Below are positions 53,514-63,767 of a DNA stretch of 64,000 bases, piece after piece (the first letter of the stretch is position 1; each line of letters begins with the position of its first letter). Source of the stretch: a virus (lineage: Duplodnaviria > Caudoviricetes); the IMG/VR virus record IMGVR_UViG_3300027782_000029, positions 32,001 to 96,000 of that record. The stretch is one strand, 5' to 3'. Position numbers and translations under genes: made by a program. A model generated the notes under the pieces. It was not told the DNA's origin, did no database searches, and worked only from the letters and a program-made list of their open reading frames with translations.

Positions 53514-53912
53514 ATGGACATATATCCTGAGAAGATACCATCTTCTTCCAAATCTTTAAATTCTTTTTATTTTAATCTTGACTCCTCAAAGCACGTCAAG
53601 AAAGAAATAGAAAACCACCTTAGCATACTCAATGATCGAATTGATAAAATTGTAGATCATTTTACTTTAGAGGATATGCCTGTTATTAAGTTCATTCTTA
53701 ATATCAGTGAGAATCGTGAAGATCTGAAAAAAGTTGGCAAAGCCTTAGACCGTGTTGCCGATCTTATTGAAGCTCGTAATGACCTTCTTCCCAAGCTTAA
53801 GATTATTGAACTTGCTGAAAAAGATCCCAATTGGTTTGCTTTAACCTTTGGAGATTTTTCTGTAAACTTAGATTTAGAATTAGATAATATATTAGGAGAC
53901 TTAGATGTCTGA
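53514..53912 (+). CDS. Hypothetical protein
   Basis: 132 aa; overlaps the start of the E2 gene. Confidence 0.6.
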   Translation: MDIYPEKIPSSSKSLNSFYFNLDSSKHVKKEIENHLSILNDRIDKIVDHFTLEDMPVIKFILNISENREDLKKVGKALDRVADLIEARNDLLPKLKIIELAEKDPNWFALTFGDFSVNLDLELDNILGDLDV

Positions 53913-55740
53913 TACTTTTAACTACTCACTCGTTGCTACAGAGGAAGGTGCTTTCACTGTTCGTTCAACTGTTAAATCTTTTAACCTTGACCATGTCACA
54001 GATAAAGATATTGTATCTTTTTATAAAAACTTTTCACAGTATGCTTCTTTTGATACAGGCCTCATGCCTCTTGATGGGACTGGCGTTCTAGCCATTAGAA
54101 CAGCTGGCCCTCATACTCAAGTTGTTACCCAACATAAGCCTGGCATGTATCACCTTAACTGGGGTTCATACGAAGGTGACTCTAGTGCTAAAGCATACTA
54201 TGTTGCTCAGCCTTATCGAATTGTAGTTGGTGACTTTAAAAATGGTAACCTTCTTGGCGCAAAAATGTTTTATTCGCCAGTTCCAATTACCTCTCCTGAT
54301 AATCAACTCTATCATGTTAATCTTCCAAACATTAACTGCAAAGGTTACCGTGGCAATGCTGTAGGTTGGATATGCTTGTATCTTAAAGATGATTGGTCAG
54401 CCCTTCCTTTCAACGAAAAGATCAGTCGCTTTATTGAACGCTGCTCTGGTGTTGAAACATACAACGATGCCAATATGTCAGAAACTGACGGTGCTCGCTT
54501 TTATCAAAAAGCTGGCAAACCAGAATACTTCTGGGATCCATCTGTATGGCAAACTAGGTCAGCCGAAGATGGCTACAATTGGACTTTAGATTCTGATCTT
54601 TTAATTCCTGTTAAAGTAAAAGATATGGACGATCAAGGTCAACATGATGACAATGGAGTTCCATTAACTCTTGCTATGGCTATGCTTGGCAACTATCAAG
54701 CATACTATTCTGACGGTGAACACACCAAAATGTACAATAAGATTTCTCGTTCTGATATGGAACTTAAAAATTCTGAAATTGCTACTTTTATTAAAGCTTC
54801 TTTTGCTTCTGCTCCAGTAACATATACTCATCAGAACAAAGATAATCCTTATGATTTTACTATAGCCCATCGTGAACAAAATGGTTCTGCAACCCTTGAT
54901 ACTTCTAAGCTCTGGGTTGCTAATAATGAAGATGAGAGCGAAGATGAGAACACATGGATTTGCAACCATTGTGAGGAAATAATGACAGAAGAAGATCCTG
55001 TTTGGGATGCACACGATAACTCTCTTTGTCTTTACTGCTTAGAGAGTCACTATGTTCTTATTCCTTCTGTCGAAAAGTATTACAATCAAGAAGATGACAA
55101 CGTTGTATACATAGAGTCTACTGATTCTTGGTACCATACTGCTCACGATACAATCATTGAATGCTCTTCTTGTGATGATGAGTATGCAATGAGTGGCAAT
55201 GGGATCATGCAGCTTCATACTGTTCAAGCTAAATTCCATAGACTTCAAGACTTGTCTTTAGTTTGTCCAACTTGCTTTACTAAAGATATAGTACAAAATG
55301 AACTTGATACTGCTGAATGTCTTTCGTGTCATAAACTTGTTGTTACATCTACTGGATGGCAATCTGTTTATCCTACATTGAAGACAGTAGATATTAACAT
55401 TGATGATCCAAATAACTCTACTTCAGAATATGTTTCATTCTGCGATTCTTGTGCTCCTAACTTCTTTGTTTGCCCTTGTGGCTTAATTAAAGATAAAGCA
55501 CAAACCCAATTTGGTTCTTGCACTCCTACTCCAATTGATTCATTTGATGATTCTGTTTCCTTAGCCGTTACAGCTTGCTGTGGTGGCTGCTTAGGAAATG
55601 TAACTGAAAATAGCGGTGGAATGATGGTTGCACACTTTGAGCCTAATATTCCAGCTTTTGTTGAAATAGTTGCAAAACACAAACTTTATCCTGGCATTAA
55701 TTCTATTAATGTCCAACCACTTGGCGATGATCCCTTTTAA
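53905..55740 (+). CDS. Prokaryotic E2 (UBC-fold, family D-like) protein with CxxC-rich C-terminal half
   Basis: LYHVNLPNIN...GWICL matches the E2 PN...GxICL active-site signature; many CxxC pairs after about residue 350. Confidence 0.7.
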   Translation: MSDTFNYSLVATEEGAFTVRSTVKSFNLDHVTDKDIVSFYKNFSQYASFDTGLMPLDGTGVLAIRTAGPHTQVVTQHKPGMYHLNWGSYEGDSSAKAYYVAQPYRIVVGDFKNGNLLGAKMFYSPVPITSPDNQLYHVNLPNINCKGYRGNAVGWICLYLKDDWSALPFNEKISRFIERCSGVETYNDANMSETDGARFYQKAGKPEYFWDPSVWQTRSAEDGYNWTLDSDLLIPVKVKDMDDQGQHDDNGVPLTLAMAMLGNYQAYYSDGEHTKMYNKISRSDMELKNSEIATFIKASFASAPVTYTHQNKDNPYDFTIAHREQNGSATLDTSKLWVANNEDESEDENTWICNHCEEIMTEEDPVWDAHDNSLCLYCLESHYVLIPSVEKYYNQEDDNVVYIESTDSWYHTAHDTIIECSSCDDEYAMSGNGIMQLHTVQAKFHRLQDLSLVCPTCFTKDIVQNELDTAECLSCHKLVVTSTGWQSVYPTLKTVDINIDDPNNSTSEYVSFCDSCAPNFFVCPCGLIKDKAQTQFGSCTPTPIDSFDDSVSLAVTACCGGCLGNVTENSGGMMVAHFEPNIPAFVEIVAKHKLYPGINSINVQPLGDDPF

Positions 55741-55781
55741 TTCAATACAAAACACTGAACCCAAATATATCGGAGATATTA

Positions 55782-62581: not shown

Positions 62582-62582
62582 C

Positions 62583-63767
62583 ATGATGCGCTATTTTAAC
62601 TACTCTCTTTATAATAATCCTTATTTATTTAATTTGAATTACGTTAGTAGCACCAATGTAATGGATAACGTAATCCACCAATACACTACATCTCTTTACA
62701 ACCTTAATGCTGCTATTGCTAACAAGTCTAACTCTTTACTTGTTTTGGATAAAGACTACTCTCTTCTCCCTATGGCTGTTCGACATGTTTCTTCTGATTC
62801 TACATGCTATATAATTGAGCGTCCTCCTTTTCAAATCCCTGTAGATTTTTCTGTTTCTAAATCTTACAAGCATAGAAAAACTGTTAAAGCTTTAAACGAC
62901 GCTTATGTTTGGGTGCCTTGGAGTGTATCTAAGATTAGCGTTACAAATCACGGTATTCAATTTGAATTATACTTTAATGATAAGTCTATAGATTCTGTTT
63001 CAGACTATCTAATCCCTTGCTATTTTCCCAACTGTTCAAGTGGGGCTGTTTGCATGGGCCAAGATAGCCCTCAGTCTGCAGGTCTTACTCCTGACTCTTC
63101 TATCCTTGATCTTTATAATTTCTACTTTAATTCTTATTTTGCTGGTTGGAATTCAGATCTTGGAATTCAAGTTCAAGGCCTGGATTACTTTGATGATATT
63201 AAAGACGATTTAGTTTCTAATAAAAATGCTCCTAGTAATCTTGAAAGATTTATTGATACAAACGGATATCGTTTTACCAATACAGAAATTCATAAGAACT
63301 TTATTTATCTAATGTCTAAATTAGATTTAAATACTACCTTAGGTTTTGTTTCTCACCTTAAAAACCTTGCTGTTAAAAGACATGGCGATACAGGCTATCG
63401 TCACGAAGTACAGAATATTATTAAACATTCTAAGCCTTTTTCTTTGCCAGTAGAGGATTTTCTTCATAGCAATTCTTATTATTATATGAGACAGGTTCCT
63501 GGATTGTTAGAATCTTATGGTTATAAGAATGATTCCAAGAGCTTTTCAAGCATAAGAACTAATGTCACTATAACTAACTATCCTAATAGCGGTGACTTTA
63601 ACCTTCGTGCTCATATAGATAATCCTTTTATCATCTCTCAAGTTTATCTAAATCATTTTTCCAAGAAAGATGACACTACTTTTAATCATAATATTACTTT
63701 AGATTATTCTTTAATTGAACCATACATTGTACTTAACGATAGGCACTCTGATGTTAACGCCAACTGA
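62583..63767 (+). CDS. Second prokaryotic E2 (family D-like) protein
   Basis: YVWVPW...YFPNCSSGAVCMG...FNSYFAGWNSDL. Confidence 0.6.
   Translation: MMRYFNYSLYNNPYLFNLNYVSSTNVMDNVIHQYTTSLYNLNAAIANKSNSLLVLDKDYSLLPMAVRHVSSDSTCYIIERPPFQIPVDFSVSKSYKHRKTVKALNDAYVWVPWSVSKISVTNHGIQFELYFNDKSIDSVSDYLIPCYFPNCSSGAVCMGQDSPQSAGLTPDSSILDLYNFYFNSYFAGWNSDLGIQVQGLDYFDDIKDDLVSNKNAPSNLERFIDTNGYRFTNTEIHKNFIYLMSKLDLNTTLGFVSHLKNLAVKRHGDTGYRHEVQNIIKHSKPFSLPVEDFLHSNSYYYMRQVPGLLESYGYKNDSKSFSSIRTNVTITNYPNSGDFNLRAHIDNPFIISQVYLNHFSKKDDTTFNHNITLDYSLIEPYIVLNDRHSDVNAN

What the first reader, a model, noticed from the sequence alone, without database searches (positions are those of the whole stretch)
53905..63767. Complete phage-encoded ubiquitin-like conjugation operon (E2, JAB, E1, Ubl, AAA+, E2)
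Adjacent co-oriented genes encode an E2-like protein with a PN...GxIC Cys, a JAB peptidase (HSH...SxxD), an E1/ThiF, a beta-grasp protein with a free C-terminal Gly (AGEKG), an AAA+ ATPase and a second E2. Established: such E1-E2-JAB-Ubl cassettes are known in bacteria (PRTRC-like and antiphage Ubl systems). Here the whole set is on the phage side, with an unfoldase and no thiamine or molybdopterin genes. Inference: the phage tags host or its own proteins, for example to neutralise defence or route substrates to AAA+, Clp or the actinobacterial proteasome.
Basis: partly seen in the sequence, partly recalled or inferred. Interest (0 to 1): 0.83.

Follow-up and report, generated by a model that had tools for sequence, protein, structure and literature searches.

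The report
Jumbo-phage ubiquitin-like conjugation gene cassette
A 203-kb lake-water phage and a large clade of its relatives carry their own set of ubiquitin-like tagging genes (activating enzyme, three conjugating-enzyme-like paralogs, a trimming peptidase and a small glycine-ended tag); such sets were previously described only on the bacterial side, and cultured jumbo phages carrying related cassettes make it testable.

Summary
All six ORFs sit at the stated coordinates on a 96%-complete viral contig with a terminase. Relatives have terminal repeats, so this is phage DNA, not host DNA.

- **JAB (g2):** complete E..HxHx7SxxD motif.
- **E1 (g3):** ThiF domain at 49 bits, with an invariant Cys184.
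- **Tag (g4, 83 aa):** ends in an invariant ...AGEKG. Three relatives carry a two-residue extension after the Gly, which implies processing.
- **E1-tag docking:** a model places the tail in the adenylation site (0.63 against a best control of 0.42).
- **E2-like proteins:** real but remote. There are three paralogs (g1, g10, g11), each with an absolutely invariant Asn...Cys. Several weak lines tie them to Prok-E2_D / PRTRC protein B and to the UBC fold.

The nearest known system is the uncharacterised bacterial PRTRC cassette. Strict membership fails: scores lie far below the cut-offs and there is no ParB.

E2-JAB-E1 in the same order also occurs in cultured Bacillus, Vibrio and Acinetobacter jumbo phages. 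The Bacillus phages add a five-repeat poly-tag.

The AAA+ link is not supported. That ATPase family occurs in phages without the cassette and is absent from the other cassette-bearing phages. Targets are unknown.

The scan had also flagged this stretch from an overlapping window.

Verdict: a new variant of a known kind, of moderately high interest.

The parts
53514..53912 (+). g0, a conserved 132-aa protein of unknown function. Its stop overlaps the g1 start by 8 nt, so it may be a translationally coupled first gene of the cassette.
   Evidence: ORF. Conserved in position in 23 of 26 related loci at 37-68% identity. No Pfam or PHROG hit.
53905..55740 (+). g1, E2-like protein number 1. The core (about residues 45-290) carries invariant H137, N139, P141, N142 and C157. 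The fast-evolving C-terminal half holds at least four conserved CxxC pairs, likely zinc ribbons.
   Evidence: - Invariant columns across 139 sequences.
- The deep g1 profile matches the g10/g11 profile by hhalign at 93.3% probability, E 2.7e-7, with C157 aligned to C157.
- VIA-align finds E2s recurrently at Z 3.0-3.9, including the CBASS E2 8hsb_B.
- ESM Atlas shape match TM 0.66 to a viral cluster in which 13% of members carry Prok-E2_D.
- Mean identity is 64% in the core and 21% in the tail.
55782..57410 (+). g2, a JAB/JAMM metallopeptidase. The catalytic domain spans about residues 129-250 and is followed by a long Cys-rich C-terminal extension.
   Evidence: - Prok-JAB at 24.7 bits, E 2.3e-5.
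- Best NCBIfam hit is PRTRC protein A, E 6e-4.
- E142 and H196-x-H-x7-S-x2-D209 are present and conserved in relatives.
57403..58149 (+). g3, a ThiF-type E1 adenylating enzyme. It has no rhodanese domain and no CxxC zinc site.
   Evidence: - Pfam ThiF at 49 bits.
- Best NCBIfam hit is PRTRC ThiF, matched over its full length, E 3e-8.
- Invariant GAGGIG, N48/E50/R51/Q52, D116 and C184.
- It is the only ThiF gene in the genome.
58163..58414 (+). g4, the 83-aa ubiquitin-like tag, ending ...EFHRRAGEKG.
   Evidence: - The terminal Gly is the last residue in 15 of 17 aligned relatives. L022 and L026 add the residues SL after it. A third contig of that subclade, L023, has the same 84-aa length.
- Atlas feature neighbours are ThiS clusters, score 0.94.
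- In the E1 docking model the tail residues 76-83 sit in the adenylation site.
- End-to-end hhalign match to the Ubl repeats of Bacillus phage WH1 gp211, E 3.7e-4.
58537..60141 (+). g5, a classic-clade AAA+ ATPase with its own N-terminal domain. It is adjacent to the cassette, but its membership in the Ubl system is doubtful.
   Evidence: - Pfam AAA at 82.6 bits plus the lid domain; phrog_8638 E 4.5e-68.
- Best NCBIfam hits are PAN, CDC48 and FtsH.
- Walker A 285-292, pore loop 318-320, Walker B 342-346, Arg fingers 400-405.
- The family also occurs in phages that gave no ThiF match.
60141..60770 (+). g6, a conserved 209-aa unknown protein. It is fused to the AAA+ protein in two relatives, so it is probably the ATPase's partner.
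   Evidence: - 60-77% identity in all related loci that reach it.
- A single 752-aa ORF covers g5 plus g6 in L019 and L020.
- No Pfam, PHROG or phage tblastn hit.
- The only lead is Whirly, at score 0.81, which is weak.
62583..63767 (+). g10, E2-like protein number 2. The core spans about residues 50-260, with invariant E79, P82, P112, W113, N150, C157, N190 and D192. The C-terminal half is divergent.
   Evidence: - AF2 model with pLDDT 77.7.
- VIA-align top hits are E2 enzymes: Ube2S at Z 4.8, rmsd 3.9 A, 127 of 151 residues aligned. About half of the 50 rows are E2, UEV or UFC1 proteins.
- AFDB Foldseek hits 'PRTRC system protein B' at E 2.4e-3.
- Residues are invariant in 184 of 184 sequences.
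- hhalign to a bona fide Prok-E2_D protein aligns the PN...C motifs, E 1.9e-4.
63715..64000 (+). g11, E2-like protein number 3 (437 aa). It runs off the window; the full gene is L002:715-2028.
   Evidence: - Paralog of g10 by hhalign, 97.8% probability, E 6.7e-13.
- A six-frame Prok-E2_D search of the phage's own genome hits only this gene, at residues about 125-249, E 0.002, 14.8 bits.
- Invariant N185 and C193.

Best explanation
This is a phage-encoded ubiquitin-like protein conjugation cascade, distantly related to the bacterial PRTRC / Prok-E2_D systems.

Proposed steps:
1. The 83-aa beta-grasp tag (g4) exposes a C-terminal glycine. In most relatives the glycine is already the last residue. 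In a subclade with a two-residue extension, the JAB peptidase (g2) would uncover it.
2. The ThiF-type E1 (g3) adenylates that glycine and probably takes the tag onto its invariant loop cysteine, C184.
3. The tag passes to the invariant cysteine of one of three paralogous E2-like proteins: g1 C157, g10 C157 or g11 C193.
4. No E3 is evident. The E2-likes therefore probably act as E2/E3 hybrids. Their large, fast-diverging C-terminal regions (zinc ribbons in g1) would select different targets.
5. The JAB peptidase also reverses or edits the conjugates.

What is shown: gene content, motif integrity, homology and conservation. What is inferred: thioester transfer, the division of labour among the three E2s, and the targets (host or phage proteins).

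The neighbouring AAA+ ATPase and g6 are most likely a separate two-gene module.
For: **E1**
- ThiF domain at 49 bits. All adenylation motifs and C184 are invariant.
- The best family hit is PRTRC ThiF over the full length.

**Tag**
- Invariant ...AGEKG end, with an SL extension in a subclade.
- ThiS-like feature neighbours in the Atlas.
- E1-tag complex score 0.63 against a best control of 0.42. That mark was reached by 58 of 80 solved complexes and 2 of 110 mismatched pairs. The three runs agree in at least 97% of contacts, and partner pLDDT is at least 81.
- The tail 76-83 contacts E1 residues 13-16, 114-118 and 139-143. This may partly reflect the model's memory of MoeB-MoaD-type structures.

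**JAB**
- Complete JAMM motif.

**E2-likes**
- Three paralogs.
- Asn and Cys are invariant in 184 of 184 and 139 of 139 sequences.
- Prok-E2_D is the only recurrent Pfam family, in 10 of 34 members. It also gives the only hit in the phage's own genome.
- hhalign aligns PN...C with a bona fide PRTRC E2.
- Fold searches return E2 enzymes and PRTRC protein B.

**Independent recurrence**
- E2-JAB-E1 in the same order occurs in Vibrio phage D69, Bacillus phage vB_BceM_WH1 and Acinetobacter phage ME3.
- The Bacillus phages add a five-repeat tag gene, each repeat ending AGTKG.

**Absence of a sulfur pathway**
- No ThiG, MoaE or rhodanese in the genome.
Against: - No biochemical data exist for this cassette or, as far as I know, for PRTRC itself.
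- Each single line for the E2 fold is weak: Z under 5, Pfam below its cut-off, hhalign 48-82% probability against single sequences, and nothing from Foldseek against the PDB.
- In the g1 model the loop carrying the proposed catalytic Cys has low confidence.
- The tag matches no curated Ubl model: Prok_Ub and PRTRC_C gave no hit.
- No target or E3 has been identified.
Confidence: 0.6

Rival explanations
1. The cassette is a sulfur-carrier or other acyl-adenylate pathway. E1 adenylates the tag, which is turned into a thiocarboxylate for tRNA, nucleoside, cofactor or DNA thiolation. The JAB only matures the tag, and nothing is conjugated to proteins.
For: - ThiF/MoeB-type E1s with Gly-ended beta-grasp partners are classically sulfur carriers.
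- The NCBIfam hits after PRTRC ThiF are ThiF and MoeB.
- The tag's Atlas neighbours are ThiS clusters.
Against: - The genome has no ThiG, MoaE or rhodanese.
- The E1 has no rhodanese domain.
- Three E2-like proteins with an invariant Cys are conserved alongside.
- E2-JAB-E1 recurs as a unit in unrelated phages and on PRTRC plasmids.
Confidence: 0.1
2. E1, tag and JAB are functional, but the three E2-like proteins are not thioester carriers. They would be non-catalytic UEV/RWD-like adaptors, or enzymes of another kind. Alternatively the tag is attached to a non-protein target, such as a lipid or nucleotide, or only to the system's own components.
For: - The E2 fold evidence is weak.
- Inactive E2-like domains are described in related bacterial systems (PMC1779556).
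- In CBASS, the Cap2 enzyme tags its own CD-NTase rather than many targets (established knowledge).
Against: - Asn and Cys are absolutely invariant across hundreds of diverged sequences, while the rest of each protein drifts.
- That Cys aligns with the PN...C cysteine of a bona fide Prok-E2_D protein.
Confidence: 0.17
3. The AAA+ ATPase is the system's unfoldase, and tagged proteins are handed to it and on to a protease: the phage's own HslV-like peptidase, host Clp, or the host proteasome.
For: - The AAA+ gene lies 122 nt downstream of the tag gene, and this position is conserved in all 26 related loci.
- It belongs to the classic AAA clade and has a pore loop. Its best matches are PAN, CDC48 and FtsH.
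- An HslV-family peptidase lies about 6 kb downstream and is present in 4 of 5 relatives tested; in two of them its coordinates place it just beyond the locus end.
Against: - The same full-length ATPase family occurs in Mycobacterium, Rhodobacter and Pseudomonas phages that gave no ThiF match.
- Cassette-bearing phages WH1, ME3 and D69 lack it.
- Synteny within one collinear clade carries little information.
- The C-terminus (...SIKG) has no HbYX docking motif.
- HslV normally pairs with HslU, not with classic AAA proteins (established knowledge).
Confidence: 0.1

Closest known systems
PRTRC system (ParB-Related, ThiF-Related Cassette; TIGR03735-03742; Pfam Prok-E2_D, Prok-JAB, Prok_Ub) on bacterial plasmids and ICEs
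   Same: - It has the same four activities: ThiF-type E1, Prok-E2_D-type E2, JAB and a small Gly-ended Ubl.
- The E1's best model is PRTRC ThiF, matched over its full length. The JAB's best model is PRTRC protein A.
- PN...C and NxDL motifs are shared with a bona fide PRTRC E2.
- The tag ends (A/L)G(E/T)KG, like PRTRC protein C of Vibrio plasmid pSEA2.
   Different: - All scores lie far below the curated cut-offs: 33 against 145 bits, and 19 against 102 bits.
- The PRTRC_B and PRTRC_C models give no hit, and there is no ParB.
- The cassette is carried by a lytic-type jumbo phage.
- It has three E2 paralogs of 394-611 aa with large variable C-terminal domains. The pSEA2 Prok-E2_D protein examined here is 242 aa.
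- The JAB is 542 aa with a Cys-rich tail.
Bil (BilABCD) antiphage system and type II CBASS Cap2/Cap3
   Same: Both are E1 + E2 + JAB (+ Ubl) cascades that work without an E3 and are involved in phage-bacterium conflict (10.1101/2023.09.04.556158; 10.1101/2023.09.26.559546).
   Different: - Those systems are host-encoded defences. Bil tags the phage central tail fibre; Cap2 tags the CD-NTase.
- Here the genes are on the phage.
- PADLOC Cap2-type E1-E2 models give only weak partial hits, mostly to the N-terminal part of the E1.
Lambda/T1 tail-assembly Ubl-JAB pair (TAPI/TAPK; Iyer et al. 2006, PMC1779556)
   Same: It is a phage-encoded beta-grasp protein with a C-terminal Gly next to a JAB peptidase.
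   Different: - It has no E1 or E2 and sits within tail genes.
- The present cassette lies among replication- and regulation-type genes (WhiB, tRNAs, SSB, UDG) and has a full activation and transfer set.
ThiF-ThiS / MoeB-MoaD sulfur-carrier pairs
   Same: They share the adenylation domain, its motifs and the Gly-ended beta-grasp partner. The predicted docking geometry is the same.
   Different: The phage has no ThiG, MoaE or rhodanese. E2-like proteins and a JAB are present instead.

Membership tests
PRTRC system | ThiF-family E1 scoring above the TIGR03736 cut-off | tested here: not met
   33.3 bits against a cut-off of 144.75. It is nevertheless the best model and matches over the full length (3-237 of g3 to 10-240 of 245).
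PRTRC system | PRTRC protein A (JAB) above the TIGR03735 cut-off | tested here: not met
   19.4 bits against 101.8.
PRTRC system | PRTRC protein B (E2) and protein C (Ubl) recognised by TIGR03737 and TIGR03738 | tested here: not met
   No six-frame hit in the phage's own genome at E <= 10. Prok_Ub also gives none. Remote similarity appears only through hhalign and motifs.
PRTRC system | Associated ParB-related protein | tested here: not met
   No ParB_N (PF02195) match in the 203-kb genome.
Prok-E2_D / UBC (E2) superfamily | Pfam Prok-E2_D at or above the gathering score (25 bits) | tested here: not met
   - 14.8 bits on g11.
- 10 of 34 family members give sub-threshold hits, best E 0.006. It is the only recurrent family.
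Prok-E2_D / UBC (E2) superfamily | UBC-like fold | tested here: inconclusive
   - VIA-align: E2s top the list for g10 (Z 4.8, rmsd 3.9 A, 127 of 151 aligned) and recur for g1 (Z 3.0-3.9), but all Z values are under 5.
- AFDB Foldseek: PRTRC protein B at E 2.4e-3; a UBC core protein at E 0.066.
- Atlas: TM 0.66 to a viral cluster in which 13% of members carry Prok-E2_D.
- Foldseek against the PDB found nothing.
Prok-E2_D / UBC (E2) superfamily | Conserved Asn (HPN-like) followed by the catalytic Cys | tested here: met
   - N150 and C157 are invariant in 184 of 184 g10/g11 sequences. H137, N139, N142 and C157 are invariant in 139 of 139 g1 sequences.
- The motif aligns with PN...C of a bona fide Prok-E2_D protein that scores 79 bits.
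JAMM/MPN+ (JAB) metallopeptidase | E ... HxHx7Sx2D zinc-site motif | tested here: met
   E142 and H196-S-H-x7-S206-x2-D209 are present and conserved in relatives. Prok-JAB scores 24.7 bits, just under the 25-bit cut-off.
E1 / ThiF adenylating enzymes | ThiF domain above the cut-off, with the nucleotide loop, Arg finger and Mg-binding Asp | tested here: met
   49 bits against 28.1. GAGGIG, N48-x-E-R51-Q52 and D116 are invariant.
E1 / ThiF adenylating enzymes | Catalytic Cys that forms a thioester with the Ubl | not testable with these tools
   Invariant C184 lies in a loop next to the predicted tail-binding site. The chemistry is untested.
Ubiquitin-like beta-grasp modifiers | Free or exposable C-terminal Gly | tested here: met
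   The tag ends ...GEKG in 15 of 17 aligned relatives. L022 and L026 add SL after the Gly, and L023 of the same subclade has the same 84-aa length.
Ubiquitin-like beta-grasp modifiers | Beta-grasp fold and docking of the tail into the E1 active site | tested here: inconclusive
   - No stand-alone model was made.
- Complex model scores 0.63 against a best control of 0.42 (58 of 80 solved complexes and 2 of 110 mismatched pairs reach the mark; runs agree in at least 97% of contacts; partner pLDDT at least 81).
- Atlas ThiS neighbours at 0.94.
- The PDB profile search gave nothing relevant.
ThiS/MoaD sulfur-carrier pathways | Partner enzymes ThiG or MoaE, and a rhodanese or sulfurtransferase | tested here: not met
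   None found in the genome.
Bil / CBASS type II (PADLOC models) | Significant full-length match to Cap2-type E1-E2, Cap3 or Bil models | tested here: not met
   Only weak partial hits, mostly to the N-terminal part of the E1, best E 2.5e-5. Nothing for g1, g2, g4 or g10.
Classic AAA+ unfoldases | AAA domain plus lid, Walker A/B, aromatic pore loop, Arg fingers | tested here: met
   This says nothing about whether the ATPase works with the Ubl system.

The most novel reading that the evidence does not exclude
Jumbo phages of several unrelated lineages run their own ubiquitin-like tagging system. E2-like enzymes double as substrate selectors (three of them here). They would mark specific host proteins, for example defence or proteostasis factors, or the phage's own virion proteins. 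The Bacillus-phage version makes the tag as a five-unit polyprotein that JAB would cut, as with eukaryotic polyubiquitin. That polyprotein is annotated as a virion structural protein, which hints that the tag ends up on particles. If true, this would be the first viral counterpart in bacteria of the Ubl defence systems and of eukaryotic-virus manipulation of ubiquitin.
Probability: 0.25. Interest if true: 0.85.

Novelty: new variant of a known kind. Interest (0 to 1): 0.66.

Why it matters
- A complete, strongly conserved E1 / E2 / JAB / tag set carried by phages would show that the other side of the conflict uses the same chemistry.
- The PRTRC-type branch it belongs to has no known function.
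- The phage cassettes found here in cultured Bacillus, Vibrio and Acinetobacter jumbo phages offer tractable systems to find out what this branch does.
- The triple E2 with fast-evolving recognition domains suggests a simple E3-free way to obtain target specificity.

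Tried and rejected
- **Megablast of the region against GenBank phages:** no match.
- **PHROGs:** only the AAA+ protein matched.
- **Foldseek against the PDB for both AF2 models:** nothing at E <= 0.001.
- **PDB sequence or profile searches:** nothing useful for the tag, g11 or the E1. A single weak ThiF-type hit, 9egb, at E 0.009.
- **Prok_Ub, PRTRC_B and PRTRC_C models on the phage's own genome:** no hit.
- **g1 deep profile against single PRTRC or phage E2 sequences:** no significant alignment. 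g1 is linked only through g10/g11.
- **tblastn of the tag and of g6 against phages:** no match.
- **g6 profile against the genes next to the AAA+ homologs of Corndog and RcMenchie:** no similarity.
- **AAA+ homolog in WH1, ME3 and D69:** none found. The tool warns that an empty answer is weak evidence.
- **Distant g10/g11 relatives (P0270, P0201):** they sit in the same syntenic phage context, so they give no independent association.
- **Promoter and terminator scan:** counts do not differ clearly from shuffled sequence (promoter-like 41 vs 43.1; terminator-like 10 vs 5.8, sd 2.4), so it gave no operon boundaries.
- **Expression:** one lake-water metatranscriptome holds 7% of the sampled words. 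Six short contig pieces at 90-99% identity fall on g0, g1, g2, E1 and the tag. Depth is minimal and DNA carry-over cannot be excluded, so this is not evidence of transcription.
- **Literature:** searches for phage-encoded E1/E2/JAB/Ubl found nothing specific. The jumbo-phage review PMC7824862 has no occurrence of JAB, ThiF or Ubl and only passing uses of 'ubiquitin'. The library is incomplete, so prior description cannot be excluded.

Full report
**Where it is**

The window is bases 32001-96000 of a 202,697-bp IMG/VR virus record, judged 96% complete. GC content is about 37%. The window holds a large terminase subunit and a replicative helicase and four tRNA genes. Complete relatives of 202-210 kb have direct terminal repeats.

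A WhiB-like regulator lies directly upstream at 53105-53500. That makes an actinobacterial host plausible.

**The observation**

ORFs lie exactly at the reported coordinates. They are co-oriented and tightly packed: the gaps are -8, 41, -8, 13 and 122 nt, and the later genes overlap or are separated by a few bases.

- **g2:** Pfam Prok-JAB at 24.7 bits, just under the 25-bit cut-off. It has the full JAMM motif, E142 plus H196-x-H-x7-S-x2-D209, conserved in relatives.
- **g3:** Pfam ThiF at 49 bits. GAGGIG, N48/E50/R51/Q52, D116 and C184 are invariant across relatives.
- **g5:** Pfam AAA plus AAA_lid_3.
- **g4:** ends AGEKG.

**Conservation**

A scan of viral contigs found 26 related loci, with E1 identity of 70-86%. 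Genes g0 to g17 keep the same order in all of them.

E1 and the tag are the best-conserved genes, at 65-87% identity. The E2-like genes are the most variable, at 28-58%.

The g1 family has 463 members in the 5.8-billion-protein set. All are unnamed, and one comes from an 'uncultured Caudovirales phage'. The g10/g11 family has 1,051 representatives at the 50%-identity cluster level. The two sampled contexts belong to the same phage clade.

**The tag**

Across 17 relatives the C-terminus EFHRR(A/S)GEKG is invariant, and Gly is the last residue in 15. L022 and L026 add Ser-Leu after the Gly. L023, from a third sample in the same subclade, has the same 84-aa length. This is the pattern expected of a modifier whose Gly must be exposed by a peptidase.

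Its nearest feature clusters in the ESM Atlas are ThiS families, at score 0.94.

A complex prediction of E1 with the tag scored 0.63 against a best control of 0.42. That mark was reached by 58 of 80 solved complexes and 2 of 110 mismatched pairs. The three runs agree in at least 97% of contacts, and partner pLDDT is at least 81. Tail residues 76-83 lie against the E1 nucleotide loop (13-16), the Mg-binding Asp strand (114-118) and residues 139-143. Because MoeB-MoaD-type complexes are solved, this pass shows likeness rather than proving binding.

**The E2-like proteins**

No curated model reaches its threshold, but several independent weak lines agree.

1. g10 and g11 are clear paralogs (hhalign 97.8% probability, E 6.7e-13). 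Deep profiles link g1 to them at 93.3%, E 2.7e-7, and align g1 C157 with g10 C157.
2. In 184 diverged g10/g11 sequences, E79, P82, P112, W113, N150, C157, N190 and D192 never vary. In 139 g1 sequences, H137, N139, P141, N142 and C157 never vary.
3. Prok-E2_D is the only Pfam family that recurs among members, in 10 of 34. It is also the only six-frame hit in the phage genome, on the g11 core at E 0.002.
4. A bona fide Prok-E2_D protein scoring 79 bits lies next to the PRTRC ThiF gene on Vibrio plasmid pSEA2. It aligns to the family profile with PN...C matched to PN...C, at E 1.9e-4.
5. The AF2 model of g10 has pLDDT 77.7. An exhaustive structural search returned E2 enzymes as its best matches: Ube2S at Z 4.8, rmsd 3.9 A, 127 of 151 residues aligned. 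About half of the 50 rows are E2, UEV or UFC1 proteins.
6. The g10 model also matches 'PRTRC system protein B' in AlphaFold DB at E 2.4e-3.
7. The weaker g1 model has pLDDT 66 and an uncertain active-site loop. It again returns E2s at Z 3.0-3.9, including a CBASS E2. It also matches, at TM 0.66, a viral Atlas cluster in which 13% of members carry Prok-E2_D.

Foldseek against the PDB found nothing for either model. I therefore treat the E2 assignment as probable, not proven.

The C-terminal halves evolve far faster than the cores: 21% against 64% identity in g1, 15% against 31% in g10, and 17% against 36% in g11. The g1 tail keeps at least four invariant CxxC pairs.

**Closest known system**

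The E1's best curated model is PRTRC ThiF, matched over its full length at E 3e-8. The JAB's best model is PRTRC protein A. The tag end (A/L)G(E/T)KG is shared with PRTRC protein C of pSEA2.

Strict membership fails:
- Scores are 4-5 times below the cut-offs.
- The PRTRC_B and PRTRC_C models give no hit.
- There is no ParB.

Bil and CBASS models give only weak partial hits, mostly to the N-terminal part of the E1. The genome has no ThiG, MoaE or rhodanese, which argues against a sulfur-carrier role.

**Independent phage lineages**

tblastn with the E1 found ThiF genes in cultured phages of about 187-235 kb. Each of the three examined carries an E2-like gene and a JAB gene near its ThiF, and two keep the contiguous E2-JAB-E1 order:
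- **Vibrio phage D69:** gene 0304 is Prok-E2_D at 20.5 bits. Gene 0303 is Prok-JAB at 35.5 bits. ThiF follows.
- **Bacillus phage vB_BceM_WH1:** gp214 matches the g10/g11 profile (E 5.6e-7 by hmmsearch; 81.7% by hhalign). gp215 is a weak JAB. gp216 is ThiF.
- **Acinetobacter phage ME3:** ME3_136 gives only a non-significant E2-profile match (E 0.076; hhalign probability 0.4%). ME3_135 is annotated 'PRTRC system protein A'. ME3_130, the ThiF gene, lies about 3 kb further on, after a tRNA and four small genes.

WH1 gp211 lies three genes upstream of its E2. It is five tandem 57-aa units, each ending EFKVQAGTKG. The units align end to end with the present tag at E 3.7e-4. This protein occurs only in the three Bacillus phages that have the cassette. 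It is a polyubiquitin-like precursor. WH1 annotates it 'virion structural protein', and I could not check the basis for that label.

**The AAA+ ATPase**

It is a bona fide classic-clade AAA protein with a pore loop and Arg fingers. It is fused to g6 in two relatives.

However, full-length relatives occur in Mycobacterium cluster-O, Rhodobacter and Pseudomonas phages that gave no ThiF match. WH1, ME3 and D69 have no homolog. I therefore regard g5/g6 as a neighbouring module. The 'unfoldase for tagged substrates' idea remains unsupported.

**Mechanism and verdict**

The most likely reading (about 0.6) is an E3-free cascade:
1. The tag's Gly is adenylated by E1, probably with a thioester on C184.
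2. The tag moves to the invariant Cys of one of three E2-like enzymes.
3. Their variable C-terminal domains choose the targets.
4. JAB matures the tag and reverses conjugation.

Gene content, motifs, homology and conservation are shown. Chemistry and targets are inferred.

I found no publication describing such phage cassettes, though GenBank annotation of ME3 already carries PRTRC and ThiF labels. This is a new, phage-borne and architecturally expanded variant of a known but functionally uncharacterised kind of system. Its main value is that it is testable in cultured jumbo phages.

Noticed in passing
L002:5616-6230 (G000:C1:100616-101230, about 6.6 kb beyond the window end): A 204-aa HslV/proteasome-beta-like Ntn peptidase beginning Met-Thr-Thr. 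It scores 24.4 bits on Pfam Proteasome (over the cut-off) and E 4.6e-21 on phrog_1040 'peptidase HslV family'. It is present in 4 of 5 related complete genomes; in two of them its coordinates place it just past the locus end, and one genome has two copies. No partner ATPase was identified.
   Followed up: partly
L035:2781-3680 (Bacillus phage vB_BceM_WH1 gp211): A polyubiquitin-like gene: five tandem 57-aa Ubl units, each ending AGTKG. It is annotated 'virion structural protein' and lies three genes upstream of that phage's E2-JAB-E1 genes. It is also present in phages Edson and vB_BauM_KLEB27-3.
   Followed up: partly
window 53105-53500 (+): A WhiB-like transcription regulator (several PHROG WhiB families, best E 1.9e-15) lies directly upstream of the cassette. 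This points to an actinobacterial host despite the low GC content of about 37%.
   Followed up: partly
L019:11160-13418 and L020:11160-13418: In two related contigs from different samples, the AAA+ gene and the following unknown gene (g6) form a single 752-aa ORF. This natural fusion suggests the two proteins work together. The only lead for g6 is a weak Whirly-like feature match (0.81).
   Followed up: partly
window 60767-62581 (+): Three further conserved genes of unknown function lie between the AAA+/g6 pair and the second E2-like gene: g7 (134 aa), g8 (222 aa) and g9 (177 aa). g8 and g9 are lost or unrecognisable in the more distant relatives.
   Followed up: no
L002:2087-3823: Immediately after the third E2-like gene come a MerR-like small protein, an SSB and a family-4-type uracil-DNA glycosylase. 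The cassette therefore sits in a replication/early-type gene block rather than among virion genes.
   Followed up: no
window 55782-57410 and 53905-55740, C-terminal halves: Both the JAB protein and E2-like g1 carry long Cys-rich C-terminal extensions. g1 has seven CxxC pairs, four of them invariant. g2 has three CxxC pairs plus further conserved Cys. These regions were not folded here, and a zinc-ribbon assignment is an inference from the spacing.
   Followed up: no
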